Assembly: GCA_032718475.1 (NCBI GenBank)
Contig: JAUCBJ010000852.1
Span: 1 to 64,000, forward strand
Length of the DNA: 64,000 nt
Reading direction: 5' to 3'
Source: Nemertoderma westbladi
Lineage: Eukaryota > Animalia > Xenacoelomorpha
The notes below the pieces were generated by a model. The model was given only the letters and a program-made list of their open reading frames with translations. It was not told the DNA's origin and ran no database searches. Positions within the stretch are counted from its first letter, which is position 1. The number at the start of each line of letters is the position of its first letter. Positions 4,325 through 54,641 of this stretch are shown here, piece by piece. The translations under genes were made by a program, and so were the position numbers.

Positions 4325-4575
4325 CTTGAATCTAGAAATAAAAATTGTTTATTTGTAAAAATATAAAAAATACTGTATACTTGCTAAAAATAAAGTAAAA
4401 CAGTAGATATTAATCGGTTACTAGGCAACAATACTGCGTTTGTATAGTTAGTGTAGTAGTGTTAGTGTACCAGCTGCCAGATAGTGGCGATAACCAAGAC
4501 ACAATAGCGATGGCAGTTATTATTCGTGGAAAGAGGGTCTATAAACAGCAGTCAACAGTCAGTCAGTGCAGTAGT

Positions 4576-14540: not shown

Positions 14541-15069
14541 ATATTGACACAGTTCAGTTTAAATATTGACACAGTACAATATAATATTGACACAGTACAA
14601 TATAATATTGACACAGTACAATATAATATTGACACAGTACAGTATTATATTGACACAGTACAGTATAATATTGACGCAGTACAGTTTAAATATTGACACA
14701 GTACAGTATAATATTAACACAGTACAGTTTAAATATTGACACAGTACAGTTTAAATATTGACACAGTACAGTATAATATTGACACAGTACAGTATAATAT
14801 TGACACAGTACAGTATAATATTGACACAGTACAGTTTAAATATTGACACAGTACAGTATAATATTGACACAGTACAGTTTAAATATTGACACAGTACAGT
14901 ATAATATTGACACAGTACAGTTTAAATATTGACACAGTACAGTTTAAATATTGACACAGTACAGTATAATATTGACACAGTACAGTTTAAATATTGACAC
15001 AGTACAGTTTAAATATTGACACAGTACAGTTTAAATATTGACACAGTACAGTTTAAATATTGACACAAT
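14541..15069 (+). repeat. 21/22-bp minisatellite within left TIR (atattgacacagtacagt[tta/at]a, ~24 units)
   Basis: Directly visible; inverted counterpart at 21441-21908. Confidence 0.95.
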
Positions 15070-15718
15070 ATGAAATGACAATTCAAATTTCCCTCTCCAT
15101 ACATGTACTATTTTTATTGGATTTAATCCACAATGTAGCAGTATGCAGTACTGCATACTGCAGTACACTGCATTACTTATACCCAGCAGTACTGCAGTTT
15201 AGTTCTGTACAACAGTAGCCTACTACAGTACTAAGGCCTACTGCAGTTCCATGGTTCCATTCCTGTAGGCCCACTGCTGTACTGTAAATAATGACTCAAT
15301 GCTGCAATGACTGGCACGCATACACAACACTGCAGCACTACCCATGACCCATACCGCAGTACCGTGAATCGGTCCGCTGGTAGCCTTCCTTATTGTGCCG
15401 CTACAGCGCTATAGCTGTATGGTGCTACCGGCTGGCTGCAATTCATTTACATTTATTATGAACAATTTACTACATTTCTACACCAGGCTGCAAATTGAGT
15501 TCAAAAATCGCAACACATTGTGCAAGATTTAAATAAAATGTCTAAAAAATAACAAGTGCTGGTTGAGCACAGATTTGCCATACATTTTTACTAATACGCT
15601 CACAAGACAATGTGATTTTTGCACCCTATTTGCAGCCTGGTTTACCGGTAGCACGTACCTCTTTTGCTCTTTAGCAAGTTAGACAGTTAGAATTTATTTT
15701 TGTTATAATATAGTAGGA

Positions 15719-18700: not shown

Positions 18701-18719
18701 AGGATTTGGGAGAATATGA
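15719..18719 (+). CDS. Transposon passenger gene: N-terminal Cys motif, acidic linker, HECT E3 ubiquitin ligase-like C-terminus; probably spliced, disrupted by a 1224-bp tandem duplication
   Basis: N-lobe-like GMMFAMCVIHG (16703/17927, after an AG) and C-lobe LLQWLFGS..F..C..CRLTYSTCAKQLIIP.H..GAGFGRI* (18390-18719) with the catalytic-type TC and terminal GFG. Exon structure uncertain. Confidence 0.65.
15867..18314. repeat. 1224-bp near-perfect tandem duplication (15867-17090 / 17091-18314)
   Basis: Identical ORF translations offset by 1224; I saw one synonymous difference (gagacagca vs gagaccgca); TG microhomology at the junction. Confidence 0.95.
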
Positions 18720-19413
18720 CTGAGTACTGGTACTTACTCCTGAACATTGAAAATATTAATAGATTCATAGATTGTTTTAGTGTTTTTTCATAGCTACATT
18801 ATAATGTCTGTGTCATTTGTACAGTACCTCGTGCTGCGCGAAGTCATGATCCATACCGAATTTAATTAAAAAATAATCGATCTTGGTTTCAATGTTTGGG
18901 TAGCAAGATGGACTTGAAATTCGGCATGGGATCAAGTCTCTCAGCGCCAGTTGTGACTGAGATCCAAGTGTATGTAGCCAATAACTTAGAGTATGATTAA
19001 CAGTGTAACAATGTAACCCATAATTTAGAATATAATTAATATTATTATTGTGAAAATTTATGAAACGCGAGAAAGCTGATGTCTGTGCCGCGCCCCCCCC
19101 CCCCCCCCCCCCCTGTCTCCAAGTGTGAGAGGAAGAAAATACGTTACATACTGTATTTTTAGACTAAATAATTGGTTTGGGCAGTGGCGTACCCAGGGGG
19201 GTCTGAAACTGAAAAACGGGTTTATTCGAACTGAAACAGAAACCTAAGTGTCCTCAGCAGTTGATAGCATATTATTAGCAAATATTAGATCTGTTAGAGA
19301 TATATGGAAGAAGATATTTTTTAAATAAAAAAAAAGTAATACAAAATAATATGAACAATTTGTTTTTATATTACATACTAACTAAATGTGTTTACACTTA
19401 ACAATATATTGTT

Positions 19414-21289
19414 TTAACAATCATCCAGATGGGCAATAGCACGTCTGCAGTCTATATAATATTGAAGTCCATAATCCCTACAGACTATTGTAGGATCTGG
19501 AACAGTATTACTCAATATTGTGAGCAAAGCACTGTCCCCTGCGGTGTCTATGGCATCATCTACATCAACATAAGAAACATCTTCGTCTGTGACTGGTCCC
19601 TCCCAATCTATACCGTAACTATGTATTTCATGCACGTTAAGCGATTCGTTAATGGGCCCTGTTGATCGAATATTGTCTCGAATACAACTGTTTGTAAAAA
19701 TTCGATTTGGTGACCAATTATTCTCTGTGCGAATTGGATGGGCATTCCATCCGCAAGAAAATTCATATAGTGATCTGTTCAGTCGCGGTATAAATATATA
19801 ATGTAGTATAACTAAATCAGAGTGGTTATCAAAATTAAGTAATGAGTTTTGCTCTAAGAAGTAAAATAAATTGTAGTATAAATGACATACTACTCTAAAT
19901 ACATCACGCCATAGCCGCTCTATACGCTGGTTATGGGTGCTCCGGCCAGCAATATAGCTTCCTCTATCTGTTCCTTGGTATTCGATCATCCAATAAGCGA
20001 CTCGGCGATTTTCGCCACCTTTGTCACCACGAACTCTTGATGGAACTCCAAACAAATTGATTGCTTCGATGAAGGACGTAAACACAGTCTCTGCACGGTT
20101 ATTTGAACTGGCTCGTAGATATACTATCGACCGAGAGTATCCATCAACTCCTCCATGAATAATAATACCCCATCTGTATAACAATTAAAATATAAAATAA
20201 ATATAATCTAAGACCAATATAAATAAATACTGTATGTATAGTTATGAACAGTAAAACACTACTGTATATATAATACAGTAATATACCGGTAGCTTAATTG
20301 GTGGATGTCTATTAAGTGAAGTTCCGTGTTCAAATCCCACTCGCCACCATTTTGCAAAGGGATTTTCACTATCCAAACTGAAAATCTGTATCATCAATAA
20401 TTATTGTTTATTGTATAAGATATTTAGGATTGGGCCTAATTTAAATGCTTACAAAAAAGCAAACCAACCTTATCAAACTGTGATGTCCATCTATGTGCCA
20501 CAGAGAATTTGCCCCAGGAACAAAGTATTTCCTTCGGGTGACAAGGGCGCCCCATCGTTGAGAAGATAAAACAGGGTCAAGTTCAGTTAGAATTCTGTGA
20601 ACTCTATTCATCTGTACTTTAATTCCCTTCGCCTTTAGGATTCCATACACCAACTTACAACCGGCGTGTGTATATTGTCCATGTATTTCAACAATTACTG
20701 ATTTTAATTCCTCATCTGTCATATCTGTGTACTCCCCGGCAGCTTGTATATCAAATTCGGTGACCCTCCTTGTTATAGTAGACCTACTCACCCCAAAGAT
20801 ATTTGAAATATCCACCCAAGTAAAGCCCATTTCTCGCAGGTTTACTAATAATTCTTTAGATATATCATAAGACGGCCGCCCAGAACTTCTACTCGAAACA
20901 CTGCCACCTGATGGCGAACTCAAGGTATTTACAGTTACCGCTACTGGTACACTAAGTCTCATAGGAGATGTGCAGCACGGGGATAAATTCATATCATCCG
21001 GAGCAATGGCAAGAAACCAACGCTTCCAACTCAGTAAGTCTGTTAGGAGTTGTGGTAAACATCTGAATGGGTTGATACCGGTATCACTAAAATTACGTAA
21101 TATAATTTCTATTGTAGTAATGAAGTGTTCCAATGATCGCACAAGAAAATCGTATTGGAAGTCGTCTTGTGATAGTGAATTGTCCCTCGCAAAGCGTAAA
21201 CATGACTCAAGAACTTTCTCTAAATCTCGCAGAAAGAGCTCAGATCCACTAACTACAGACGCCGGCAGGTCATCCATATCATATGTCAT
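19414..21289 (-). CDS. DDE transposase (integrase-core, IS3EU type), two exons 21289-20469 and 20173-19414, apparently intact (~526 aa)
   Basis: GT-AG intron 20468-20174 joins LWHIDGHHSLIR to WGIIIHGGVDGYSR; RVRGDKGGEN; STHNQRIERLWRDV; N-terminal HTH (GFTWVDISNIFGVSRSTITRR). Confidence 0.88.
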
Positions 21290-21440
21290 ATATCTCTGTA
21301 TCTTTCTAACAGTCTGTTCACGGTCAGACAGTAGGCCTAATTTAGTTATAGTAATACTGCTGTACACTGGTACAACATCCCACTTTATATCCAATCAAAG
21401 GGGATGTGCGTGGGGTAGAGGGAAATTTGAATTTCCATTT

Positions 21441-21908
21441 CATATTGTGTCAATATTTAAACTGTACTGTGTCAATATTTAAACTGTACTGTGTCAATAT
21501 TTAAACTGTACTGTGTCAATATTATACTGTACTGTGTCAATATTTAAACTGTACTGTGTCAATATTTAAACTGTACTGTGTCAATATTATACTGTACTGT
21601 GTCAATATTTAAACTGTACTGTGTCAATATTATACTGTACTGTGTCAATATTATACTGTACTGTGTCAATATTATACTGTACTGTGTCAATATTATACTG
21701 TACTGTGTCAATATTTAAACTGTACTGTGTCAATATTTAAACTGTACTGTGTTAATATCATACTGTACTGTGTCAATATTTAAACTGTACTGCGTCAATA
21801 TTATACTGTACTGTGTCAATATAATACTGTACTGTGTCAATATTATATTGTACTGTGTCAATATTATATTGTACTGTGTCAATATTTAAACTGAACTGTG
21901 TCAATATT
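21441..21908 (-). repeat. 21/22-bp minisatellite within right TIR (~22 units)
   Basis: Reverse complement of 14541-15069, including the same rare variant units. Confidence 0.95.
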
Positions 21909-31633: not shown

Positions 31634-32257
31634 TACATTTCTAATTTCGTCTCTAGCCGTTTTATTTAGACAACTACCAGAAACCGATGTTATTCAATTA
31701 ACCTCACGTCGTGATATTAAATTTAGATAGAACTCTTTCTAGATAAAATATATAGAAAATTCTAGAAAAAATAGAAATATCTATCATTTTTTTTTCAAAA
31801 AATACTAGCTATTAAAAAAACACACTAGCTACCATAAAAAAATATCTATTAAGGTTCTAGAACATTCACCAATATCCAAAAAAACACTATAAAGCAATAT
31901 TATATTTTTTAATTTTCAAAAAATAGTAGCTAGTAAAAAAAACGAGCTACCATTAAAAAATTTATACTAAGGTTCTAGAACAATCACCAATGTTCTACAA
32001 CATAATAAAATGGCATAAAACACAATAAATTTACACAAATGTGCTGTATACATACATACTGTACTAGTACTGGTTATACATAATACTTGTACCAATATCA
32101 CAAAATTACTAGCTACCATCTTGCTGTCAAAAGGTCAAAAGGTCAAATATTTATTTCTAGAACATAAAACCACTTGGCACAGTAATAACTACTGAAATAA
32201 TACAATAGTATTCAAGTGCATGGTGGTGTTCTTATTTGATAAATAATAAACATTGTT

Positions 32258-32269
32258 AGCAATAGCAAG
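32258..32269 (+). promoter_or_regulatory. Putative viral segment terminus AGCAATAGCAAG
   Basis: 10/12 identical to the influenza A conserved end AGCAAAAGCAGG, 25 nt upstream of the PB1 ATG, at the boundary with AT-rich host-like DNA. Confidence 0.7.
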
Positions 32270-34500
32270 AGGTTCAGATACAATGTTTTCCAAACTAGCC
32301 AATAAGGCCTTAGGTCCAATAGTTAATAACCTGTACGCTTATGTAGGCGCACCTCCTGTTCGAACCGGGACCTGTACGCGGTATGTTTTAAATACCGCGG
32401 TGCGAACTCTAAAATATCATGGGACCAGCAACGATTCCCCTTATACCAGGACGACGGACTGGAAAGAGTTAAATCTCAATCACAACCTTATCAATTCTAA
32501 GGTAGACCTAGACATTGTCCAGGGATGCGCCGCACTGTACCGAGAGGGACTAAAAACAGACCCCGACTCCCTGCTTGCGACCTGGGTGGATAAGTTAAGT
32601 ATTCGGCGTGCTGATGAGCTCCAAAAGGGAAGAATGACATACTCCCCATTCTTAGACGTAAACATACCCGCTGCTGACGCATATCTTGAGACACATCAAT
32701 TCCTCGAAAAGAACCTGGGGTACCCCATCGGTCCTAGCTATTTTGACCATATGCGTGCGACCTTAGCCGTATTATCGCTTCCCGTTGTATACTACCGAGT
32801 TAATACAATCGGAGGATTTGTCCAGAAAGAATTCTCTCAAGAGCAATTGTGGAACCGTATTACAACACTATCTACCTTTATAAAGCAACTTGAAAGAGGT
32901 CAAAAAGACGCACGCTCTATCGCGTTGCCATGCATAATATTTCGCTTCTTCCAGTACGCAATTGAAGAACTGTCAAAGATTACCTTAGAAAAGCACGAGG
33001 GAAGTGCGTTGAAGGCCGGGACTGTCGACAAGGTGTCTAAAATCTATGGCAAAGTCACTGAGATCTCTGACAATCTATGCATGGTCATCACAGGTGATAA
33101 CTCCAAGTGGAACGAGTGCGTCTCAATTCCCGCTTTAGTCCGGATTCTAATGACAATTTTTAAGAATTGCGACACACATAATTACCAGACACTAACAACT
33201 ATCTGCTTGATGCTCGAAAATCTGTTTGAATCCAAGAGCCTGAGATTGGGGAAGGGGTTATCGGTAAAGGACAAAAATGGGGTGTTAACCAATGGCGCAA
33301 TTACCAGGGAATTAATCAGGCTTTGTCCGGATGTACACAATATCGTAGATGGCTACCAGGACTTCATAAACGAAGAAGAGCAAACAATTTGGGTCCCCCC
33401 AGGGATGGTGATGGGGATGCTCAATACTGGGTCTACGCTAGTGGGAATGGTCTGTTCACTTCCTGAATACCTTATGAAGATCCAAAGTAGTGACGACTTC
33501 GTTTCAATATTGAAAGCAGAGTTAGTCGTAAAGGAGTACGCCAGGGAATGGATTAAAGCAAACCAACCGGACGATTGGCAAGAAATCTTGGAGAACCACC
33601 GGAAAGTTAAGTTCTTTTCAATGTGTCTAGCTGCTACTGCTACAAGCCTTTTTGAAAGAGCCTTAAGACCAATGATTCAATACCCAAAACCTACAGTATC
33701 GAGAAAGGGGATTACTGGGAATATAATTCTGTCCATAATTTAGGTAAATACCTGGGAAACTTCTCGACAGAGTTACCAACTCTACTCCCATTGGGTAAAA
33801 ACCCATCTGTGGATTTGGAATGCCTCGCTAAATCACTAAGAGAGAGTTGTCAGAAGGGGGCATTGGACCCTTGTTTGGTCCCAATCGCACTAGGTATTGT
33901 CGAGCGTAACTACAAACTAGATTACTTTGCCAATCCCAACCCGAGGGGCGTTGCTCACATGCGCGGCCCGGTTCTGAGTAAGCTATACGAAGAGACACCC
34001 AATCTGAGTGTTAATTCTACTCATCCTTGCCACGGTGGTCCCTTATTATGGTCCACTAGTACTCTTACTTGCAATCACTGGGCCTAGGATGGCATCTAGG
34101 CATATACCCCGACTTATATATACAAAGGGTTATGAACCCCATCAATCCCACCAATTTTACTTCGGATAATAAAGACCTAGTATTGTTTTCGAGCAGTAAA
34201 CGCAGCGAGGTTGAAGCTGAATTCTCTCCAGGATGCATGTCAATAGCTTTCAGGGACAATCGTAAATGTTTGAACACTACCCAAGGAAACCTTAGGATCA
34301 ACCGTGCACGCAAATATAGAAGGTTCAACACCGGACTGGGGAAATGCGCAAGGGACGTAGCTATGTTTAACATGCAAAGTACAGCTTCAGTAGCCAAGAC
34401 ACTGTATAATAGATACAGCGCTGTAAATGAACTGTCTGAGTTGACACCCGATGAGGGGAACGCATTAAATGAGTTAAAACAGATTTGTGATACATTGTGA
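32258..34500 (+). pseudogene. PB1: Endogenous viral element: near full-length orthomyxo-like (Articulavirales) PB1 RNA-dependent RNA polymerase segment, two frameshifts
   Basis: ATG 32283; N-term YAYVGAPPVRTGTCTRYVLNTAVRTLKY (influenza [28 protein letters not shown]); motif F KQLERGQKDARSIA; A ITGDNSKWNE (33093); B GMVMGMLNTGST; C IQSSDDF (33483); after a shift at ~33670 SIPKTY..WEYNS..GNFSTELP..GKNPSVD; after a shift at ~34083 RVMNPINP, DNRKCLNTTQ; stop 34500. Confidence 0.95.
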
Positions 34501-34508
34501 ATATATAT

Positions 34509-37500
34509 TAGGGTGCATCATTTGCCCCACGATTTTCAAAACTTTTATAGATTGTCTTGTACCTCGGCAAAATAGTTCCTTTTAATGAAAAAATCAAGTA
34601 TGTGAAATATTACCTCAAAATATTTATGTCTACCTGGTCCACCAACTTCATTAATAATGCCCCCTGTAGCGACACTTCGATGCGATTATAAGCTATAAGC
34701 AATTTTTGAGATAGCGAATATTTGGCACCCCTGTGTTAATGACTGAATGATATTAACTCAATAGATCCACAATTGTCGACTTAGTGGGGGTAGACACATT
34801 CAATTTAAGGATCGAGTGATCAGTTCTTGAGATATTACATAAGATGAATAGACTCTCACTCTCACAATGCAACATAACTACAGCAATGAAATGGGTATTC
34901 ATTAAAAGTAAAATGTAACATACTTATAATAGATCAAACAATCAAGAATTATGCTCTTTCAAACCACAATGGACCATTTAGATCCTTGAGTCCTAATCAA
35001 TCAATTTTTACTTCATCTATTTATTGTGATACTTTAAAAATTTGAGTCAACTTGCTATATAATAATATAGTATTATATAATCAATGTTATGTTCATCATA
35101 CTATTTCGATTATGATAAAAGTAAACTCAAAATTTCGGTTACAGAGACTACATTACTAAATCAACAACTGAATCAACAACTAGCTAATATATTCACTAAT
35201 ATATAGAAGCTGACAATAAAATGTTCATAATAATTGGATGAGTTCATGACAGTCCGTCTCTGAATCATTTCTTTCCATACTGCTTCTTCCGCTTTCTTAA
35301 GTTCGGCATGGATTTACGATCCCTCTCCACTACTTGTAGTACATTCTGGAAATGTTCTTCTTTCTTTGCAGCCTCCAAAAAGTCGGAACTCAATTTGACA
35401 CCCCTCTCTGAAATATCATTTAAATTATTGATGGCCTTTATATTTTCTAATGAGTTTTTATATACCTCCAGGGTCGACCAGTCATTCACATTGGTATTCA
35501 AGAAAGAGCTGTCTAGTTTCAAGAGATGAAATGTATACCATGAGTCTGGACCAACAAGATCTGGTAGTGTGGTTGATGGAGAAATGTCTGGAAATTTGGG
35601 TTTCCCATAACTTGTTCCAAATCTATTCTGTGGAGCATTGGGTAGCTCTTTAGGTTTGATGTTCAACAGTGCATCAGCAAGCGCACGTTTCTCATGATTA
35701 GTCAGTTTGCTACTGAACAGAGCCAATGGTATATATTCTTCAGTGAGATACCAGAGGTGTCTATTCAGTGCTTTCAATGCACTACTTGACACCTGTGGGT
35801 TAAGTTCTGCATAAGAAACAATATTGCGATAAAGAATGAGATCATTGATAGGAGCATCAATCGTATGTCCACAGGAAAACCACCAGCTGCTATAAATCAA
35901 AGTGACAAAGTTAGTAAATTCACGAAGCTTAGTCATCTGGTATTTGGATGCAATGGTTCCCTTTGGTAGAAGATTGATCTGTTTTTCCATCAAACACATC
36001 TTCAGAGCATACAGTAACTTGCTCATCCATCTAGCTTTGTGCATTGCACCAGGATATTTGAACTTGTATGGGTGTTCCTGATCCTTTCCAAGAAAAACTT
36101 CACAAAGTTTAGCAAATTCAGCATAGTCTTCCCTACAATACTCTGCTGTTGATTGTGATTGTAAGAGGACATCATTTTTCCAGTTATTAACAATAGTTGT
36201 GGTTTCTAAATTCTCAGACACAGAAAGACCAGACAATTGGTGAACATCATAATCACTTTCAAGCATCTGGAAATGTTTTTGAAATCGAACAAAAATCATG
36301 ATCTCAGGAGATTGGGATACCTCAATGTATAAATCAGTGAACACCTGTGTTAATATGATCTCCCCTATGTGGTGGCGACACCCCGACCATAGAAGAGCTC
36401 GATCTAGTCTTTGCTGAACTGATATACAAGCTGCAGAAATGTGGCCAGTGTTACTTGATGTTGTATCAAAAACGAGGTTGACAATGGATTCCGTACACCC
36501 CCATTTATCTAACAGTTCACCTGTTTTCTCAGATATGATAGAACCAGTGGTTTTATCTGACCCTGGTTTGTATGCTGGTACACCAAGCAGTTTTGTATCT
36601 GTACTTGTACCAACATAGACAGCAAGTCGCTCTTCTGCATCATACTTGTTTTGTAATGTTGGTAGGAGCTTGTTATCCCAATGAAGAGAAGCAAATTTCG
36701 GAGGAACCCACTCACAACGTGTTGTTGTAGCAATCTCTTCATTCACTGTCCTACGGGCTTTATCAGCTGTCGCATATGATGTTGAGATTTTTGTCTTATC
36801 ACCCCCTGAAACTTCAACAATAGCTTCAGTAAATGCAGCCTGCTGAGCTGGAGTCATTTTGATCCTTGTGGCTAAGGACACAATTTGTGGCGATTTCAGA
36901 ATATCATGAGGGATAAAAGCTTGTGTTCCAGTGAATTTGGTCCTGTGATGACTGCAATAAGTGGTAGTACTACTGCTTGGTTGGTCCGTGGCAGTACATC
37001 CCTCATTGCTGCTTTCATCTGTGGAAGTGTCAATGTCTAGTAATGCACTCTGAGGATTATCTGCAATAGCCTGTGCATTTTTTAACCTTTTTTCACATAT
37101 TTGATGGCGATCTTTAATTCGTTTCACTTTCGCAGCAAGGAGCTTATCAAAACTTCCCATGGTTGCCTGCCTGTCACCCATCATTGACTTCAGAAACTCT
37201 AAATCATCTTTATTTTTAATTGTTTCTAAGGCATCTGTTGTCCACAGTTGGAAAGTTTTATCAAGTGTAAATTGTGCTGCCTGCAATCTTTCAATTATGG
37301 TTGTATTGTTTCGACGTGATAATGGTATTTGCCGAAGTTTGGCATTTTCATCCATTAGTTTTATTATTTTCTGAGCCGCTTTCTTCTGGGTCATCATTGG
37401 AATATTAGCTTTGGAATAAAATACATTTATTTGACTTAAAACTGCCATAGCTGAATCCCACTTAAATGGTGTTGTTATTTTTTTTGACATGCCTTCTTGA

Positions 37501-38499
37501 ATATGATAGAGCATGCACCGCAATACTTGACGACATGTTGGTAAACGGCATCCTGTAATAACCTTGTCATTTATTGTTATCCCCTCTCCTAGACCATATA
37601 TTTTATTTGATTCGCGTGTCTGTGTAGTTGATTTCGAGCTTGTTGCCATGTTTTAAAAACTAAATACTAAATATATAAGGCATAATTATAGTGTCCCAAT
37701 ATAATTTATTATCAAATTATACTTATGAGAATAATCAAAGTTTACATAGCCTATATCATTAGACACTGCTGGTACTGTCTGACTGTATTTTTAAAGTTTA
37801 ATAAGCCAAATAAGACATACATAGACAAGGTAAGTGTGTACTGGAAACCAGTAAAATACTTATATCTTCTATACACTATTAGTTACCAAATAGGCCTAAT
37901 ATGTGATCGTGACTGCCAGTGCAGCCAGAATTAGTCTACCAGGTGGACTGGACTGGACTGGATAGGTACTCATACATACATCAAGACAGAGTGACAAATT
38001 CAACAAAGCGATATTACCTCAAACTGCATTAATAATAGGCTCATTCAAACTGCAATGTGCAAGATGGTGGGTATAGGCGCCTTTAAAACAACATTAAAGT
38101 GATTAGATCTTGATATATTGCATGCGCAGCTACTATATTGCTTTTGCACGAAGCAATGCCCTTATGTGAAGGTATGCTGGTATACCCATTTCAACAATAT
38201 ATCGAGAACTAGACATACTCTTGTTTTGAATGTTTTTACCCCCACTAAATCGACCATTGCTGTTCTAATAAGTTACTATCACTAATGCAAGGATACCAAA
38301 AGTTGGTTATATCGAAAATTGCTAATTTGTAATGTCGCGTCAAATGTCGCTGAAGCGGTAATTACAAATGAAGTTGGTGGACCAGGTAAATATTATTTAT
38401 TTGCCAAAATACTTCACATGCATTATTTTCCCATCAAAATGAACTATTTATGAGAGGTACAAGACAATCCATGATGTAAGGGGCAAATGATGCACCCTA
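34509..38499 (-). mobile_element. Full-length hAT (hATm-type) DNA transposon
   Basis: TIR TAGGGTGCATCATTTGCCCC / GGGGCAAATGATGCACCCTA plus ~300 bp of imperfect subterminal inversion; flanks atatatat / ataattat (6/8 match). Confidence 0.88.
35265..37649 (-). CDS. hATm-type transposase, 794 aa, uninterrupted
   Basis: LHWDNKL, FDTTSSNTG, CRHHIGE, PGAMHKARWM, HLWYLTEE, NDISERGVKL. Confidence 0.9.
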   Translation of the reverse strand: MATSSKSTTQTRESNKIYGLGEGITINDKVITGCRLPTCRQVLRCMLYHIQEGMSKKITTPFKWDSAMAVLSQINVFYSKANIPMMTQKKAAQKIIKLMDENAKLRQIPLSRRNNTTIIERLQAAQFTLDKTFQLWTTDALETIKNKDDLEFLKSMMGDRQATMGSFDKLLAAKVKRIKDRHQICEKRLKNAQAIADNPQSALLDIDTSTDESSNEGCTATDQPSSSTTTYCSHHRTKFTGTQAFIPHDILKSPQIVSLATRIKMTPAQQAAFTEAIVEVSGGDKTKISTSYATADKARRTVNEEIATTTRCEWVPPKFASLHWDNKLLPTLQNKYDAEERLAVYVGTSTDTKLLGVPAYKPGSDKTTGSIISEKTGELLDKWGCTESIVNLVFDTTSSNTGHISAACISVQQRLDRALLWSGCRHHIGEIILTQVFTDLYIEVSQSPEIMIFVRFQKHFQMLESDYDVHQLSGLSVSENLETTTIVNNWKNDVLLQSQSTAEYCREDYAEFAKLCEVFLGKDQEHPYKFKYPGAMHKARWMSKLLYALKMCLMEKQINLLPKGTIASKYQMTKLREFTNFVTLIYSSWWFSCGHTIDAPINDLILYRNIVSYAELNPQVSSSALKALNRHLWYLTEEYIPLALFSSKLTNHEKRALADALLNIKPKELPNAPQNRFGTSYGKPKFPDISPSTTLPDLVGPDSWYTFHLLKLDSSFLNTNVNDWSTLEVYKNSLENIKAINNLNDISERGVKLSSDFLEAAKKEEHFQNVLQVVERDRKSMPNLRKRKKQYGKK

Positions 38500-41400
38500 A
38501 TAATTATATGTGTACATAATTATATGTGTATATCGTTATATGTGTACATCGTTCTATGTGTACATCGTTCTATGTGTACATCGTTCTATGTGTACATCGT
38601 TCTATGTGTATATCGTTCTATGTGTATGTCAATCTATGTGTATATCGTTCTATGTGTACATCGTTATGTGTACATAATTATATGTGTATATCGTTATATG
38701 TGTACATCGTTCTATGTGTACATCGTTCTATGTGTACATCGTTCTATGTGTATATCGTTCTATGTGTAAGTCATTCTATGTGTACATCGTTCTATGTGTA
38801 TATCGTTCTATGTGTATGTCATTACATGTGTATATCGTTCTATGTGTATGTCGTTCTATGTGTATGTCATTCTATGTGTATATCGTTCTATGTGTATGTC
38901 ATTATATGTGTATATCATTCTATGTGTACATCGTTATGTGTACATCGTTCTATGTGTACATCGTCATATGTGTATGTCGTTCTATGTGTACATCATTATA
39001 TGTGTACATCGTTCTATGTGTACATCGTTCTATGTGTACATCGTTCTATGTGTACATCGTCATATGTGTATGTCGTTCTATGTGTACATCGTACTATGTG
39101 TATGTCATTCTATATGTAAATCGTTCTATGTGTACATCGTTCTATGTGTACATCGTTATGTGTACATCGTTCTATGTGCATGTCGTTCTATGTGTACATT
39201 GTTCTATGAGTACATCGTTGTGTACATCGTTCTATGTGTATGTCATTATATGTGTATATCGTTCTATGTGTACATCGTCCTATGTGAACATCGCTATGTG
39301 TACATCGTTCTATGTGTACATCGTTCTATGTGTACATCGTTCTATGTGTACATCGTCATGTGTACATCGTTCTATGTGTATGTCATTATATGTGTACATC
39401 GTTCTATGTGTACATCGTCCTATGTGAACATCGCTATGTGTACATCATTATGTGTACATCATTCTATGTGTACATCGTTCTATGTGTACATCGTTCTATG
39501 TGTACATCGTTCTATGTGTACATTGTCATATGTGTATGTCGTTCTATGTGCACATCGTTCTATGTGTATGTCGTTCTATGTGTACATCGTTCTATGTGTA
39601 CATCGTTATGTGTACATCATTCTATGTGTACATCGTTCTATGTGTACATCGTTCTATGTGTACATCGTCATATGTGTATGTCGTTCTATGTGTACATCGT
39701 TCTATGTGTACATCGTTCTATGTGAACATCGCTATGTGTACATCGTTCTATGTGTACATCGTTATGTGTACATCGTTCTATGTGTACATCGTTATGTGTA
39801 CATCGTTCTATGTGCACATCGTTCTATGTGTACATCGTCATATGTGTATGTCGTTCTATGTGTACATCGTCATATGTGTACATCGTTCTATGTGTACATC
39901 GTACTATGTGTATGTCGTTCTATGTGTACATCGTTCTATGTGTACATCGCTATGTGTACATCGTTATGTGTGTACATCGTTATGTCTACATCGTTCTATG
40001 TGTACATCGTTCTATGTGTACATCGTTATGTGTACATCGTTCTATGTGTACATCGTTATGTGTACATCATTCTATGTGTACATCGTTCTATGTGTACATT
40101 GTTCTATGTGTACATCGTTCTATGTGTAAGTCATTCTATGTGTACATCGTTCTATGTGTATATCGTTCTATGTGTATGTCATTACATGTGTATATCGTTC
40201 TATGTGTATGTCGTTCTATGTGTATGTCATTCTATGTGTATATCGTTCTATGTGTATGTCATTATATGTGTATATCATTCTATGTGTACATCGTTATGTG
40301 TACATCGTTCTATGTGTACATCGTCATATGTGTATGTCGTTCTATGTGTACATCATTATATGTGTACATCGTTCTATGTGTACATCGTTCTATGTGTACA
40401 TCGTTCTATGTGTACATCGTTCTATGTGTACATCGTCATATGTGTATGTCGTTCTATGTGTACATCGTACTATGTGTATGTCATTCTATGTGTAAATCAT
40501 TCTATGTGTACATCGTTATGTGTACATCGTTCTATGTGTACATCGTTATGTGTACATCATTCTATGTGCATGTCGTTCTATGTGTACATCGTTCTATGTG
40601 TACATCGTTGTGTACATCGTTCTATGTGTATGTCATTATATGTGTATATCGTTCTATGTGTACATCGTCCTATGTGAACATCGCTATGTGTACATCGTGC
40701 TATGTGTACATCGTTCTATGTGTACATCATTCTATGTGTACATCGTTCTATGTGTACATCGTCATGTGTACATCGTTCTATGTGTATGTCATTATATGTG
40801 TACATCGTTCTATGTGTACATCGTCCTATGTGAACATCGCTATGTGTACATCGTTATGTGTACATCATTCTATGTGTACATCGTTCTATGTGTACATCGT
40901 TCTATGTGTACATCGTTCTATGTGTACATCGTCATATGTGTATGTCGTTCTATGTGTACATCGTTCTATGTGTATGTCGTTCTATGTGTACATCGTTCTA
41001 TGTGTACATCGTTATGTGTACATCATTCTATGTGTACATCGTTATATGTGTACATCGTTCTATGTGTACATCGTCATATGTGTATGTCGTTCTATGTGTA
41101 CATCGTTCTATGTGTACATCGTTCTATGTGAACGTCGCTATGTGTACATCGTTCTATGTGTACATCGTTATGTGTACATCGTTCTATGTGTACATCGTTA
41201 TGTGTACATCGTTCTATGTGCACATCGTTCTATGTGTACATCGTCATATGTGTATGTCGTTCTATGTGTACATCGTCATATGTGTACATCGTTCTATGTG
41301 TACATCGTACTATGTGTATGTTGTTCTATGTGTACATCGTTCTATGTGTACATCCCTATGTGTACATCGTTATGTGTGTACATCGTTATGTGTACATCAT

Positions 41401-44400
41401 TCTATGTGTACATCGTTCTATGTGTACATCGTTATGTGTACATCGTTCTATGTGTACATCGTTATGTGTACATCATTCTATGTGTACATCGTTCTATGTG
41501 TACATCGTTCTATGTGTACATCGTCATATGTGTATGTCGTTCTATGTGTACATCGTTCTATGTATACATCGTTCTATGTGAACATCGCTATGTGTACATC
41601 GTTCTATGTGTACATCGTTATGTGTACATCGTTCTATGTGTACATCGTTATGTGTACATCGTTCTATGTGTACATCGTTATGTGTACATCGTTCTATGTG
41701 TACATCGTTCTATGTGTACATCGTCATATGTGTATGTCATTATATGTGTACATCGTTCTATGTGTACATCGTCCTATGTGTACATCGTTCTATGTGTATA
41801 TCATTCTATGTGTAAGTCATTCTATGTGTACATCGTTCTATGTGTATGTCATTATATGTGTATATCGTTCTATGTGTACATCGTCCTATGTGAACATCGT
41901 TCTATGTGTACATCGTTCTATGTGTACATCGTTCTATGTGTACATCGTTCTATGTGTATATCATTCTATGTGTATGTCAGTATATGTGTATATCGTTCTA
42001 TGTGAATGTCAATCTATGTGTATATCGTTCTATGTGTACATCGTTATGTGTACATAATTATATGTGTATATCGTTATATGTGTACATCGTTCTATGTGTA
42101 CATCGTTCTATGTGTACATCGTTCTATGTGTATATCGTTCTATGTGTAAGTCATTCTATGTGTACATCGTTCTATGTGTATATCATTATGTGTACATCAT
42201 TCTATGTGTACATCGTTATGTGTACATCGTTCTATGTGTACATCGTTCTATGTGTACATCGTTCTATCGTTCTATGTGTATATTGTTCTATGTGTATGTC
42301 AGTATATGTGTATATCGTTCTATGTGTACATCGTTATGTGTACATAATTATATGTGTACATAATTATATGTGTATATCGTTATATGTGTACATCGTTCTA
42401 TGTGTACATCGTTCTATGTGTACATCGTTCTATGTGTACATCGTTCTATGTGTATATCGTTCTATGTGTATGTCAATCTATGTGTATATCGTTCTATGTG
42501 TACATCGTTATGTGTACATAATTATATGTGTATATCGTTATATGTGTACATCGTTCTATGTGTACATCGTTCTATGTGTACATCGTTCTATGTGTATATC
42601 GTTCTATGTGTAAGTCATTCTATGTGTACATCGTTCTATGTGTATATCGTTCTATGTGTATGTCATTACATGTGTATATCGTTCTATGTGTATGTCGTTC
42701 TATGTGTATGTCATTCTATGTGTATATCGTTCTATGTGTATGTCATTATATGTGTATATCATTCTATGTGTACATCGTTATGTGTACATCGTTCTATGTG
42801 TACATCGTCATATGTGTATGTCGTTCTATGTGTACATCATTATATGTGTACATCGTTCTATGTGTACATCGTTCTATGTGTACATCGTTCTATGTGTACA
42901 TCGTCATATGTGTATGTCGTTCTATGTGTACATCGTACTATGTGTATGTCATTCTATATGTAAATCGTTCTATGTGTACATCGTTCTATGTGTACATCGT
43001 TATGTGTACATCGTTCTATGTGCATGTCGTTCTATGTGTACATTGTTCTATGAGTACATCGTTGTGTACATCGTTCTATGTGTATGTCATTATATGTGTA
43101 TATCGTTCTATGTGTACATCGTCCTATGTGAACATCGCTATGTGTACATCGTTCTATGTGTACATCGTTCTATGTGTACATCGTTCTATGTGTACATCGT
43201 CATGTGTACATCGTTCTATGTGTATGTCATTATATGTGTACATCGTTCTATGTGTACATCGTCCTATGTGAACATCGCTATGTGTACATCATTATGTGTA
43301 CATCATTCTATGTGTACATCGTTCTATGTGTACATCGTTCTATGTGTACATCGTTCTATGTGTACATCGTCATATGTGTATGTCGTTCTATGTGCACATC
43401 GTTCTATGTGTATGTCGTTCTATGTGTACATCGTTCTATGTGTACATCGTTATGTGTACATCATTCTATGTGTACATCGTTCTATGTGTACATCGTTCTA
43501 TGTGTACATCGTCATATGTGTATGTCGTTCTATGTGTACATCGTTCTATGTGTACATCGTTCTATGTGAACATCGCTATGTGTACATCGTTCTATGTGTA
43601 CATCGTTATGTGTACATCGTTCTATGTGTACATCGTTATGTGTACATCGTTCTATGTGCACATCGTTCTATGTGTACATCGTCATATGTGTATGTCGTTC
43701 TATGTGTACATCGTCATATGTGTACATCGTTCTATGTGTACATCGTACTATGTGTATGTCGTTCTATGTGTACATCGTTCTATGTGTACATCGCTATGTG
43801 TACATCGTTATGTGTGTACATCGTTATGTCTACATCGTTCTATGTGTACATCGTTCTATGTGTACATCGTTATGTGTACATCGTTCTATGTGTACATCGT
43901 TATGTGTACATCATTCTATGTGTACATCGTTCTATGTGTACATCGTTCTATATGTACATCGTCATATGTGTATGTCGTTCTATGTGTACATCGTTCTATG
44001 TGTACATCGTTCTATGTGAACATCGCTATGTGTACATCGTTCTATGTGTACATCGTTCTATGTGTACATCGTTATGTGTACATCGTTCTATGTGTACATC
44101 GTTATGTGTACATCGTTCTATGTGTACATCGTTCTATGTGTACATCGTCATATGTGTATGTCGTTCTATGTGTACATCGTCATATGTGTACATCGTTCTA
44201 TGTGTACATCGTACTATGTGTATGTCGTTCTATGTGTACATCGTTCTATGTGTACATCGCTATGTGTACATCGTTATGTGTGTACATGTTCTATGTGTAC
44301 ATCGTTATGTGTACATCGTTCTATGTGTACATCGTTCTATGTGTATGTCATTATATGTGTACATCGTTCTATGTGTACATCGTTATGTGTACATCGTTCT

Positions 44401-45650
44401 ATGTGTACATCGTTATGTGTACATCGTTCTATGTGTACATCGTTCTATGTGTACATCGTTATGTGTACATCGTTCTATGTGTACATCGTTATGTGTACAT
44501 CGTTCTATGTGTACATCGTTCTATGTGTATGTCGTTCTATGTGTACATCGTTCTATGTGTACATCGTTATGTGTACATCATTCTATGTGTACATCGTTCT
44601 ATGTGTACATCGTTCTATGTGTACATGGTCATATGTGTATGTCGTTCTATGTGTACATCGTTCTATGTGTACATCGTTCTATGTGAACATCGCTATGTGT
44701 ACATCGTTCTATGTGTACATCGTTATGTGTACATCGTTCTATGTGTACATCGTTATGTGTACATCGTTCTATGTGTACATCGTTCTATGTGTACATCGTC
44801 ATATGTGTATGTCGTTCTATCTGTACATCGTCATATGTGTACATCGTTCTATGTGTACATCGTACTATGTGTATGTCGTTCTATGTGTACATCGTTCTAT
44901 GTGTACATCGCTATGTGTACATCGTTATGTGTGTACATGTTCTATGTGTACATCGTTATGTGTACATCGTTTTATGTGTACATCGTTCTATGTGTATGTC
45001 ATTATATGTGTACATCGTTCTATGTGTACATCGTTATGTGTACATCGTTCTATGTGTACATCGTTATGTGTACATCGTTCTATGTGTACATCGTTCTATG
45101 TGTATGTCATTATATGTGTACATCGTTCTATGTGTACATCGCTATGTGTACATCGTTATGTGTGTACATGTTCTATGTGTACATCGTTATGTGTACATCG
45201 TTCTATGTGTACATCGTTCTATGTGTACATCGTTATGTGTACATCGTTCTATGTGTACATCGTTATGTGTACATCGTTATGTGTACATCGTTCTATGTGT
45301 ACATCGTTATGTGTACATCGTTCTATGTGTATGTCATTATATGTGTACATCGTTCTATGTGTACATCGCTATGTGTACATCGTTATGTGTGTACATGTTC
45401 TATGTGTACATCGTTATGTGTACATCGTTATGTGTACATCGTTCTATGTGTACATCGTTATGTGTACATCGTTCTATGTGTACATCGTTCTATGTGTATG
45501 TCATTATATGTGTATATCGTTATATGTGTATATCGTTATATGTGTATATCGTTATATGTGTATATCGTTATATGTGTATATCGTTATATGTGTATATCGT
45601 TCTATTTGTACATCGTTATGTGTACATCGTTCTATGTACATCGTTATGCA
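38500..45650. repeat. ~7.1-kb satellite, 16-bp unit tatgtgtacatcgttc with 14-bp variants and higher-order duplications
   Basis: Directly visible; identical variant order recurs at offset 3844 (ORF-track 38526 vs 42370, 38684 vs 42528) and ~1360-1406. Confidence 0.97.
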
Positions 45651-46880: not shown

Positions 46881-46921
46881 TCACCTGATGACGAATTTAA
46901 TAAATTTGAAACGCGTTATGA
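46881..46921 (+). ncRNA. Second, slightly mutated hammerhead copy in the opposite arm
   Basis: tcac-CTGATGA-cgaatttaataaattt-GAAAC-gc-GTT-atga; first base pair of stem I mismatched. Confidence 0.6.
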
Positions 46922-47125: not shown

Positions 47126-47304
47126 CTTGTCTCCTGATTGGGTAACGGAAATAGGAACTCCCTATCGAATCTACCGGGACGTCTGAGAGCGGGATCAATA
47201 GCGTCCAACCGATTTGTTGCTCCTATGACAACCACTTCACCACGGGAATCCAATCCATCCATGAGGGCTAACAGAGTACTCACAATGCTAGAGTGAATTT
47301 GATC
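47126..47304 (-). CDS. ATAD2: ATAD2-family AAA+ ATPase exon (sensor 1 / arginine finger)
   Basis: AG|[60 protein letters not shown]|GTAAG. Confidence 0.93.
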
Positions 47305-47394
47305 CTAATAAAGAATAAATAATTTACATTTAATTATAACCCGAGCCGAACCCCAGTCGTCATGGAACTCGGCTCACAACCATCGATTTGGAAG

Positions 47395-50087
47395 TGCGAC
47401 AAGGTGCCCAGCCATCGATATAAACACACCTGTTTGGAACTGCGACAAGGTGCCCAGCCATCGATATAAACTCACCTGTTTGGAACTGCGACAAGGCGCC
47501 CAGCCATCGATATAAACTCACCTGTTTGGAACTGCGACAAGGTGCCAAACCATCGATATAAACTCACCTGTTTGGAACTGCGACAAGGTGCGCAGCCATC
47601 GATATAAACTCACCTGTTTGGAACTGCGACAAGGTGCCCAGCCATCGATATAAACTCACCTGTTTGGAACTGCGACAAGGTGCCCAGCCATCGATATAAA
47701 CTCACCTGTTTGGAACTGCGACAAGGTGCCCAGCCATCGATATAAACTCACCTGTTTGGAACTGCGACAAGGTGCGCAGCCATCGATATAAACTCACCTG
47801 TTTGGAACTGCGACAAGGTGCCCAGCCATCGATATAAACTCACCTGTTTGGAACTGCGACAAGGTGCCCAGCCATCGATATAAACTCACCTGTTTGGAAC
47901 TGCGACAAGGTGCCCAGCCATCGATATAAACTCACCTGTTTGGAACTGCGACAAGGTGCCCAGCCATCGATATAAACTCACCTGTTTGGAACTGCGACAA
48001 GGTGCCCAGCCATTGATATAAACTCACCTGTTTGGAACTGCGACAAGGTGCCCAGCCATCGATATAAACTCACCTGTTTGGAACTGCGACAAGGTGCCCA
48101 GCCATCGATATAAACTCACCTGTTTGGAACTGCGACAATGTGCCCAGCCATCGATATAAACTCACCTGTTTGGAACTGCGACAAGGTGCGCAGCCATCGA
48201 TATAAACTCACCTGTTTGGAACTGCGACAAGGTGCCCAGCCATCGATATAAACTCACCTGTTTGGAACTGCGACAAGGTGCCCAGCCATCGATATAAACT
48301 CACCTGTTTGGAACTGCGACAAGGTGCCCAGCCATCGATATAAACTCACCTGTTTGGAACTGCGACAAGGTGCCCAGCCATCGATATAAACTCACCTGTT
48401 TGGAACTGCGACAAGGCGCCCAGCCATCGATATAAACTCACCTGTTTGGAACTGCGACAAGGTGCCCAGCCATCGATATAAACTCAGCTGTTTGGAACTG
48501 CGACAAGGCGCCCAGCCATCGATATAAACTCACCTGTTTGGAACTGCGACAAGGCGCCCAGCCATCGATATAAACTCACCTGTTTGGAACTGCGACAAGG
48601 TGCCCAGCCATCGATATAAACTCACCTGTTTGGAACTGCGACAAGGCGCCCAGCCATCGATATAAACTCACCTGTTTGGAACTGCGACAAGGTGCGCAGC
48701 CATCGATATAAACTCACCTGTTTGGAACTGCGACAAGGTGCCAAACCATCGATATAAACTCACCTGTTTGGAACTGCGACAAGGTGCGCAGCCATCGATA
48801 TAAACTCACCTGTTTGGAACTGCGACAAGGTGCCCAGCCATCCATATAAACTCACCTGTTTGGAACTGCGACAAGGTGCCCAGCCATCAATATAAACTCA
48901 CCTGTTTGGAACTGCGACAAGGCGCCCAGCCATCGATATAAACTCACCTGTTTGGAACTGCGACAAGGTGCCAAACCATCGATATAAACTCACCTGTTTG
49001 GAACTGCGACAAGGTGCGCAGCCATCGATATAAACTCACCTGTTTGGAACTGCGACAAGGTGCCCAGCCATCGATATAAACTCACCTGTTTGGAACTGCG
49101 ACAAGGTGCCCAGCCATCGATATAAACTCACCTGTTTGGAACTGCGACATGGTGCCCAGCCATCGATATAAACTCACCTGTTTGGAACTGCGACAAGGTG
49201 CCCAGCCATCGATATAAACTCACCTGTTTGGAACTGCGACAAGGTGCCCAGCCATCGATATAAACTCACCTGTTTGGAACTGCGACAAGGTGCCCAGCCA
49301 TCGATATAAGGTCACCTGTTTGGAACTGCGACAAGGTGCCCAGCCATCGATATAAACTCACCTGTTTGGAACTGCGACAAGGTGCCCAGCCATCGATATA
49401 AACTCACCTGTTTGGAACTGCGACAAGGTGCCCAGCCATCGATATAAACTCACCTGTTTGGAACTGCGACAAGGTGCCCAGCCATCGATATAAGCTCACC
49501 TGTTTGGAACTGCGACAAGGTGCCCAGCCATCGATATAAACTCACCTGTTTGGAACTGCGACAAGGCGCCCAGCCATCGATATAAACTTACCTGTTTGGA
49601 ACTGCGACAAGGTGCACAGCCATCGATATAAACTAACCTGTTTGGAACTGCGACAAGGTGCCAAACCATCGATATAAACTCACCTGTTTGGAACTGCGAC
49701 AAGGTGCCCAGCCATCGATATAAACTCACCTGTTTGGAACTGCGACAAGGTGCCCAGCCATCGATATAAACTCACCTGTTTGGAACTGCGACATGGTGCC
49801 CAGCCATCGATATAAACTCACCTGATTGGAACTGCGACAAGGTGCCCAGCCATCGATATAAACTCACCTGTTTGGAACTGCGACAAGGTGCCCAGCCATC
49901 GATATAAACTCACCTGTTTGGAACTGCGACATGGTGCCCAGCCATCGATATAAACTCACCTGATTGGAACTGCGACAAGGTGCCCAGCCATCGATATAAA
50001 CTCACCTGTTTGGAACTGCGACAAGGTGCCCAGCCATCGATATAAACTCACCTGTTTGGAACTGCGACAAGGTGCCAAACCATCGAT
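47395..50087 (-). repeat. 46-bp intronic minisatellite (~58 units) = last 36 nt of ATAD2 exon + donor GTGAGTTTAT
   Basis: Minus unit ATCGATGGCTGGGCACCTTGTCGCAGTTCCAAACAG|GTGAGTTTAT; first unit is the true exon end (IDGLAPCRSSKQ). Confidence 0.95.
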
Positions 50088-50217
50088 TTCATCAAAGAAT
50101 ATAATACTGGGCCTCATAGTGTAAGCTTGGTCGAACAATAACCGTAGCTGACGTTCACTTTCTCCGACCCATTTACTCAACGTATCCGCTCCTTTTCGCA
50201 TAAAAAACGCAACTTTC
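50052..50217 (-). CDS. ATAD2: ATAD2-family exon (Walker B)
   Basis: AG|(R)KVAFFMRKGADTLSKWVGESERQLRLLFDQAYTMRPSIIFFDEIDGLAPCRSSKQ|GTGAGT; phases agree with neighbours. Confidence 0.95.
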
Positions 50218-50535
50218 CTGTTGACAGAGTAACAAATACAACAAATAACAACAAAGTACAACTAAGTACAACAAGTGCAACAAATACACAAAGTAACAAT
50301 TAAATTCAGTTAAATGGCTGTGAAACAATAACGGAACACCGTTAAGTACTACTACTACAAATAGGTCGAGTGAGCTCAATGGTCAAACATTCCGTAGACA
50401 CACAGAATAGGAATTTTATATAACGTTGATGAAAATATTGATAAAAGCAAATGAAAGTAGAACAATAAATAATGTAATTAACACGGCCAGATAGATGTAT
50501 CTCAACGTATTATATCTATCTGCCTCACATAATTA

Positions 50536-54003
<3,468 letters not shown>

Positions 54004-54081
54004 ATTACAAAAATATCCATTGTGTCAATTTCTCTGGATAATACAAACAGATTGTTCTAGAAGGTTTTTTCCCTTGCCTAC

Positions 54082-54641
54082 CTCCGGGTACACCAACGGG
54101 AACACGACCATCTCCTTGAGGGACCGGATGTGTTCCTCGAGGCCGCCGACTGAATCGGCGAAGTTTATCGACCTGTCGACGTGCATGGGGTCTACGTCGG
54201 CGAGCGAGGTCCCGATCCGAGCGCGGTCTCGTTGCACCATACCCAGGTCCCCCGCCCGGTAGTTCATCGGGAGCAGTCGCTCCCTCGCCAGTTGCATGCT
54301 CTTCGCCTTTCGCCGCTGGAAGTCGCGCTCGTCCTCCTGCGTATCGTCCGCGTCGCTGTCGGTCGAGGTCGAGCTGCCCCGGCCCGCCGAGTGTTGACGG
54401 AGACCGCGGCCAGCGGATCGGCCCAGCGGCGGACGTTTACGGAAAGCCGGCGATCGAGGCGAGTGTTTCCTTAGCAACCGGGTGTGGCGACGGTCGCTAC
54501 GCGGCTCGGAGCTCTCGTAGACCAGCCTCAGGGGGGCGTCTCTCCGCTCTCGGAGGTTGTACGTCCGACTCTCCTCCTCCTCGGAACAGCTCGACGATTC
54601 CGAAGAGGTTTCCTCGGCGTCCGACTCGCTCGGAACCGCAT
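54082..54641 (-). CDS. ATAD2: ATAD2-family exon (acidic/basic N-terminal region into AAA domain)
   Basis: tttctctttag|..EEEESRTYNLRER..DERDFQRRKAKSMQLARERLLPMN..IGTSLADVDPM..VGGLEEHIRSLKEMVVFPLVYPE|GTAGG. Confidence 0.92.

What the first reader, a model, noticed from the sequence alone, without database searches (positions are those of the whole stretch)
47395..50087. Intron made of ~58 tandem copies of the exon end plus its splice donor
Seen: each 46-bp unit repeats the last 12 codons and a consensus CAG|GTGAGT donor; almost all donors are intact. Only the first gives the correct frame: +1 or +2 units shift the frame and the third unit contains an in-frame stop. Inference: a large decoy-donor/U1-binding array that the gene must ignore or exploit (NMD-coupled regulation, protection from premature polyadenylation, re-splicing).
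Basis: partly seen in the sequence, partly recalled or inferred. Interest (0 to 1): 0.7.

Follow-up and report, generated by a model that had tools for sequence, protein, structure and literature searches.

The report
Repeated splice sites in ATAD2 introns
In an animal ATAD2 gene, one exon end with its splice signal is copied 58 times into the next intron and a nearby exon start 105 times into the intron before it, yet the spliced sequences found use only the true sites, so these are likely harmless repeats of a kind ("mirages") already known from lancelet and human genes.

Summary
58 units of 46 bp (minus strand) copy the last 36 nt of an ATAD2 AAA-domain exon plus GTGAGTTTAT; 57 of 58 keep GT and 52 read CAG|GTGAGT. 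Every downstream donor tested (+1 to +9) gives a premature stop. Spliced contigs from two runs in two studies join donor 1 straight to the next exon; one of them also uses the last acceptor. Three DNA runs hold the 46-bp unit; in the two I measured, its depth roughly matches the assembled copy number. Donor positions are not better conserved than the rest of the unit, the intron has no AATAAA, and a seed of this size touching a ~100-nt intron straddles a splice site about half the time by geometry. This is a 'mirage' minisatellite (amphioxus Adh3 and globins; human F7, CBS, IFI6), larger than the published cases I read, and likely neutral, tolerated because the exon-proximal site wins. Leaky use removed by NMD is not excluded. 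The scan has found this kind before in other genomes.

The parts
47387..50087 (-). 46-bp donor-side minisatellite: 58 donor-bearing units plus a partial last unit; unit 1 is the real exon end
50052..50217 (-). ATAD2 AAA-domain exon (166 nt; KVAFFMRK...APCRSSKQ); real donor after 50052, CAG|GTGAGT
   Evidence: tblastn; Pfam AAA; boundaries from spliced contig
47305..50051 (-). 2,747-nt phase-0 intron that holds the donor array; unique 3' end with its own acceptor
47126..47304 (-). next ATAD2 exon (179 nt; DQIHSS...), joined to donor 1 in contigs of runs X4 and X5
49956..49958 (-). TGA inside the third donor; first stop for any donor three or more units downstream
50647..54001 (-). 32-bp acceptor-side minisatellite: 105 acceptors, 104 identical units (CTAAC/CTAAT branch-like motif, pyrimidine tract, CAG|GTTTAT); only the last (AG at 50654-50653) keeps the frame
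   Evidence: last acceptor used in the X4 contig
50537..50652 (-). ATAD2 Walker A exon (116 nt; [24 protein letters not shown]...)
50218..50536 (-). 319-nt intron without a large array, skipped in the X4 contig
   Evidence: table 5
54082..54641 (-). upstream ATAD2 exon (560 nt; its 5' boundary is inferred from sequence), joined to 50652 in the X4 contig

Best explanation
This is a minisatellite whose 46-bp unit straddles an ATAD2 exon end and its splice donor, with a twin 32-bp array on a nearby acceptor; spliced contigs use only the exon-proximal site of each, and the arrays are likely neutral growths that survive because that site wins. Steps: (1) Inferred: slippage or unequal exchange duplicated 46 bp across the donor of a ~100-nt intron; ATCGATGG stands at the unit start in the exon and again after the array. 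(2) Inferred: repeated unequal exchange expanded and homogenised the array; exon-type and majority-type units are interspersed. (3) Shown for the dominant mature RNA: donor 1 and the last acceptor are used. (4) Inferred from F7 minigenes and exon definition (recalled): the site that closes the shortest exon next to the unique exon body is selected. (5) Inferred: rare mis-splices all carry early stops and would be cleared by NMD, so the cost is small and the decoys are neither kept nor purged.
For: X4 contig (2,208 nt, depth 921) runs exon-exon across all four window exons: it skips 50218-50536 (GT..AG), joins 50052 to 47304 and joins 50652 to 54082. The X5 contig (970 nt) shows one exon-type unit followed by unique exon sequence, joined to 47304. 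DNA runs X1, X2 and X3 hold the collapsed unit; unit/flank depth is 38-43 in X3 and 46 in X1 against 36 expected from the assembly (rough). Donor -3..+6: 7 of 38 variant occurrences against 7.4 expected; 6 of 17 distinct variants against 3.3 (p 0.12). Folding gives donor 1 no access advantage (P unpaired 0.007; others 0.0005-0.115). Geometric chance of straddling a splice site is 0.47-0.65 for introns of 93-125 nt. Seven large arrays cover 23% of the window. Precedent: F7 uses only the most upstream of 5-9 identical donors whatever the unit number, 1-12; amphioxus mirages at either boundary do not disturb splicing.
Against: Contigs drop rare variants, and every alternative product tested is an NMD candidate, so decoy use is not measured. 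X4 and X5 are listed as 'DNA?' with no library record; I infer RNA from exact intron skipping and from a word share (0.85) equal to the exon share of the query (560/661). X5 has the sample label of the possible source DNA. In F7 minigenes the sequence CAG/gtgagt did draw 70-90% of splicing from a weaker upstream site, and IFI6 and CBS use the next one or two pseudo-donors, so some leak is plausible. No contig spans either array and no related genome could be examined, so conservation is untested. Neutrality is inferred from within-array variation only.
Confidence: 0.8

Rival explanations
1. Regulated unproductive splicing: the decoy donors and acceptors divert a tunable share of ATAD2 transcripts to NMD, and array length sets the dose.
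For: All tested alternative donors (+1 to +9) and acceptors (-1 to -7, and the first) give premature stops. IFI6 and CBS use the nearest pseudo-donors. Depth ratios for the 32-bp unit differ between samples (65-68 in X2, 149-206 in X3, 104 assembled), a weak hint of length variation.
Against: Stops follow from unit lengths not divisible by 3 and need no selection. There is no excess conservation of donors. In F7, unit number did not change donor choice. No contig with extra units was listed in X4 or X5 (absence in contigs is weak).
Confidence: 0.08
2. Self-correcting ratchet: both units contain AG|GT, so a mis-splice leaves a GT..AG remnant of whole units whose removal restores the exact mRNA, or the intron is removed stepwise.
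For: Sequence logic holds for both arrays at +1, +2, +3 and +10 units. The 32-bp unit carries branch-like motifs and a pyrimidine tract.
Against: The 46-bp unit has no YTRAY branch-like motif and has a second AG 10 nt upstream of the junction AG. The regenerated donor of the acceptor array, GAG|GTTTAT, is weak. AG|GT is the ordinary splice consensus, so the property comes free. The EJC blocks re-splicing of regenerated sites in Drosophila (PMC8184009, abstract only).
Confidence: 0.05
3. U1 sink or telescripting device: 57 U1 sites protect the transcript from premature polyadenylation.
For: 52 of 58 sites are near-consensus CAG|GTGAGT, and the following intron is long (over 47 kb if the assembly is right).
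Against: The array intron has no AATAAA and a single ATTAAA, at its acceptor end. The AATAAA sites at 46901 and 46773 lie behind the next exon's own AAG|GTAAGT donor. Donors are not conserved above background. It does not explain the acceptor array.
Confidence: 0.03
4. Assembly artefact or untranscribed gene copy.
For: The 32-bp array is 100% identical, no contig spans either array, and the rest of the gene is not in the window.
Against: Collapsed unit contigs at high depth in DNA runs of two studies, with flank contigs that run into the array. The 46-bp array has 16 unit types. Spliced contigs match these exons with 0-1 differences per piece.
Confidence: 0.02

Closest known systems
Amphioxus 'mirage' minisatellites (Adh3, globins BflGb6 and BflGb9, TnC, PGBD5); PMC3087553 (six passages read) and PMC3902484 (one passage read); the original Adh3 paper known only through these
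   Same: Tandem repeats that span an exon-intron boundary, at either end of an exon, carry AG/GT signals and leave normal splicing intact; unit sizes of 10-72 bp in Adh3 include 46 and 32 bp.
   Different: Copy numbers here (58 and 105) far exceed BflGb6 (3-6); the acceptor array is 100% identical; the host appears not to be among the species whose ATAD2 was retrieved (best identity about 81% over the AAA region).
Human F7 intron 7 37-bp VNTR, with IFI6 (6-16), CBS intron 13, LMNB2 and PDGF cases cited there; PMC1557585 (parts 1, 3 and 4 of 6 read)
   Same: The first monomer spans the exon-intron junction, identical pseudo-donors follow, and the most upstream donor is the one used.
   Different: The F7 unit holds 4 exonic nt and a weak donor (CV 74) in 5-9 copies; here the unit holds 36 exonic nt and a donor that paper scores as CV 100, in 58 copies against at most 26 in the cases it cites; here an acceptor array sits in the same gene.
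Recursive (ratchet) splice sites and EJC-suppressed re-splicing; PMC8184009 (abstract only)
   Same: AG|GT juxtaposition in every unit, which would regenerate a donor.
   Different: No branch-like motif in the 46-bp unit, spacing of 46 or 32 nt instead of kilobases (typical spacing recalled), and no intermediate observed.

Membership tests
Mirage / splice-boundary minisatellite | Head-to-tail repeat whose unit spans an exon-intron boundary of the host gene | tested here: met
   46-bp unit = 36 exon + 10 intron nt; 32-bp unit = 26 intron + 6 exon nt
Mirage / splice-boundary minisatellite | Most units keep GT or AG splice signals | tested here: met
   57 of 58 GT; 105 of 105 CAG
Mirage / splice-boundary minisatellite | Normal mRNA is made from the exon-proximal site | tested here: met
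   X4 and X5 contigs use donor 1; X4 uses the last acceptor; dominant form only
Mirage / splice-boundary minisatellite | Length instability between alleles or individuals | tested here: inconclusive
   Depth ratios: 32-bp unit 65-68 against 149-206 (104 assembled); 46-bp unit 38-46 (36 expected); depth is not a copy number
Mirage / splice-boundary minisatellite | Homogenised interior with diverged boundary units | tested here: met
   Mean 1.2-1.35 differences between units at any distance up to 15; the last full unit and the partial unit are variant; only the first 32-bp unit differs
Recursive splicing array | AG|GT that regenerates a donor | tested here: met
   strong donor for the 46-bp unit, weak for the 32-bp unit
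Recursive splicing array | Branch point and pyrimidine tract before the AG | tested here: not met
   No YTRAY in the 46-bp unit, AAAC before the AG and a competing AG; met only by the 32-bp unit
Recursive splicing array | Intermediates (lariats, saw-tooth coverage) | not testable with these tools
   Only contigs were available
AS-NMD regulatory element | Alternative site gives a premature stop upstream of a later junction | tested here: met
AS-NMD regulatory element | Conservation of the alternative site above background | tested here: not met
   Within-array test only; no related genome was available
AS-NMD regulatory element | Regulated isoform that rises on NMD inhibition | not testable with these tools
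   No raw RNA reads listed

The most novel reading that the evidence does not exclude
Both arrays are self-correcting: because each unit contains AG|GT, transcripts mis-spliced at a decoy are re-spliced in whole-unit steps back to the exact ATAD2 mRNA (or the intron is ratcheted out), which would explain how 58 strong donors and 105 identical acceptors are tolerated in one conserved gene.
Probability: 0.05. Interest if true: 0.6.

Novelty: new member of a known kind. Interest (0 to 1): 0.17.

Why it matters
It is an ordinary member of a described class, but an extreme one. Identical strong donors (58) and identical full acceptors (105) flank two adjacent small exons of one well-expressed gene, so splice-site sequence is held constant and only position differs. 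That makes it a clean natural test of exon definition against scanning. A 5'-to-3' scan for the first acceptor would pick the wrong one of 105, whereas exon-proximal choice explains both arrays. It also warns annotation pipelines that such arrays produce repeated false exon fragments.

Tried and rejected
No whole genome is held, so a genome-wide count of boundary arrays and a look at relatives were impossible. The run search listed no holder on record as RNA ('no RNA holder listed'); two holders proved to be spliced when laid. X4 and X5 showed no cover inside the introns, which is not counted as evidence. The joint 47303-47429 looks like use of donor 58 but is an artefact of a reference that lacked the real exon: the piece has the two exon-type letters and continues into unique exon sequence. 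One search used exon borders that were off by 1-2 nt for two exons; its frame, U1-score and acceptor-access lines were discarded and the frame tests redone. RNA structure as the reason donor 1 wins: rejected. Intron gain by tandem duplication of exon sequence: rejected, since the unit contains intron sequence unlike the next exon and the intron has its own 3' end. A mild excess of distinct variants at +1..+6 (6 of 17, expected 2.2, p 0.017) is post hoc, absent by occurrences (7 of 38) and for -3..+6 (p 0.12); I do not claim selection against decoys. A GGG in 46 of 57 decoy units but not in the true exon end might act as a silencer; F7 G-triplet mutants had no effect, so it was left. Paper searches found no further acceptor-side case; one search found three papers with 'mirage', two of them relevant. 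PMC2812944 (8 passages) and PMC10078293 (12 passages) were only background. Supplements were not read.

Full report
Observation. TRF finds a 46-bp array at 47387-50087 with 58.7 copies and 97% matches. Read on the minus strand it has 58 donors at exact 46-nt spacing, the first after position 50052. Each unit is the last 36 nt of an exon plus GTGAGTTTAT. 57 of 58 keep GT, 52 read CAG|GTGAGT, one reads CAG|GTAAGT and one is dead. The array has 16 unit types. The true exon end (GGTTTG) recurs in 4 decoy units, while 53 of 58 units carry GGCTGG.

Gene. The host is ATAD2. The upstream exon retrieved 78 proteins, nearly all named ATAD2 or ATAD2B where a name is given, at best 48% identity over 90% of the query. 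tblastn of 9 of them finds four colinear exons. 72 of 78 homologs have RSS[RK]QDQIH across the junction that donor 1 makes. Borders are 54641-54082, 50652-50537, 50217-50052 and 47304-47126, and they join into 339 codons without a stop. Donors +1 and +2 shift the frame and stop in the next exon; +3 to +9 stop at 49958.

The intron 54081-50653 holds a 32-bp array (50647-54001) of 105 acceptors, 104 of them identical. Each has CTAAC/CTAAT, a pyrimidine tract and CAG|GTTTAT. Only the last keeps the frame; acceptors -1 to -7 and the first all stop within the unit. So two adjacent small exons are flanked by 104 decoy acceptors upstream and 57 decoy donors downstream.

Is it real and transcribed? 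Five runs in three studies hold the upstream exon. X2 and X3 cover exons and introns alike and contain collapsed unit contigs at high depth; X1 does too. Unit-to-flank depth is 38-43 in X3 and 46 in X1, against 36 expected from the assembled k-mer counts. For the 32-bp unit it is 65-68 in X2 and 149-206 in X3, against 104. These are rough figures and no contig spans an array. X4 and X5 are listed as 'DNA?' but behave as RNA: their share of words (0.85) equals the exon share of the query. The single X4 contig laid (2,208 nt, depth 921) skips the 319-nt intron, goes from 50052 directly into the exon at 47304, and from 50652 into the exon at 54082. X5 (970 nt, depth 49) shows the same donor-1 junction from the acceptor side. 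The dominant mature RNA therefore uses donor 1 (2 runs) and the last acceptor (1 run). Contigs drop rare forms and every alternative tested would be an NMD target, so decoy use is unmeasured.

Is there a sign of function? Among the 57 decoy units, donor positions -3..+6 hold 7 of 38 variant occurrences (7.4 expected) and 6 of 17 distinct variants (3.3 expected, p 0.12). There is no extra conservation, and no donor-dead variant has spread. Folding gives donor 1 no advantage. The intron has no AATAAA. Collapsed to one unit, the two introns would be about 93-125 and 101 nt. A 46- or 32-bp seed that touches such an intron straddles a splice site with probability 0.47-0.65. Seven large arrays fill 23% of the window, and the other arrays checked carry no donor motif on this strand. 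Two boundary arrays in one gene therefore need only a high minisatellite birth rate and short ancestral introns (inference).

Mechanism. Shown: anatomy, frames, and exon-proximal usage in the dominant RNA. Inferred: origin by slippage at the ATCGATGG repeat seen in the exon and after the array; growth by unequal exchange; choice of the site that closes the shortest exon; clearance of rare errors by NMD. In F7 minigenes the most upstream of identical donors was always used and unit number (1-12) did not matter, although CAG/gtgagt decoys outcompeted a weaker first site. Here the first site is as strong as the decoys. A pure 5'-to-3' scan cannot explain use of the last of 105 acceptors, whereas exon definition (recalled) explains both arrays.

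Re-splicing. Removing the whole-unit remnant from a mis-spliced RNA would restore the exact mRNA for both arrays. But the 46-bp unit lacks a branch-like motif, the regenerated GAG|GTTTAT donor is weak, and the EJC suppresses such re-splicing in flies (PMC8184009, abstract). I give it 5%.

Comparison. PMC1557585 lists donor-spanning minisatellites in F7, 6-16 (IFI6), CBS, LAMIN B2 and PDGF. PMC3087553 describes amphioxus 'mirages' at both 5' and 3' boundaries, with 10-72-bp units in Adh3, length instability and no interference with splicing; PMC3902484 adds TnC and PGBD5. The locus meets the defining features that I could test; length instability is inconclusive. Earlier notes of this scan report the same kind in other genomes and gave me the term 'mirage', which I then checked in the papers; there are no notes on this genome. 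What stands out is scale: 58 and 105 copies against 3-26 in the passages I read.

Verdict. Real, expressed and correctly spliced; a new, unusually large member of a known class; likely neutral. Interest 0.17.

Noticed in passing
window 50647-54001 (-): 105-copy, 100% identical 32-bp acceptor array in the same ATAD2 gene; the last acceptor is used in X4; depth ratios differ about 2.5-fold between two samples.
   Followed up: yes
window 1-47125: The next ATAD2 exon (reads EKILRIHTRK in the X4 loose end) is not in the window, so the following intron exceeds 47 kb or the assembly is broken here.
   Followed up: partly
window 32250-34500 (+): Endogenous orthomyxovirus-like PB1 polymerase sequence, broken into three reading frames, each matching Pfam Flu_PB1 (E 8e-51, 7e-12, 4e-5; profile positions 17-449, 470-599, 613-714).
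   Followed up: partly
window 38507-45645: 7.1-kb 16-bp minisatellite (about 458 copies, TATGTGTACATCGTTC) with higher-order duplication; no donor motif on the gene strand.
   Followed up: partly
window 35265-37652 (-): Intact 795-aa ORF without a Pfam match; looks like a DNA transposase by eye (recalled, untested).
   Followed up: no
window 624-4348 (-): Protein-primed-type DNA polymerase B pieces (DNA_pol_B_2, E 1.5e-11, with a weak endonuclease VII match), as in Polinton/adintovirus-like elements (label recalled).
   Followed up: partly
window 47343-47375 (-): 13-bp hairpin with G-U pairs between the end of the array and the acceptor, about 40 nt before the exon.
   Followed up: no
window about 50068-50070 (-): The exon reads IDGLAPCRS where 76 of 76 homolog matches have V in place of C; the X4 contig agrees with the window.
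   Followed up: no
window 14539-21908: Inverted 21-bp arrays (14539-15067 and 21446-21908) flank a block with a duplicated 1.2-kb ORF pair and a Harbinger- or integrase-like ORF (by eye), possibly one large transposon.
   Followed up: no
window 50264-50290: The X2 contig lacks 27 nt in the 319-nt intron's short repeat and has 6 other differences: a second haplotype.
   Followed up: no
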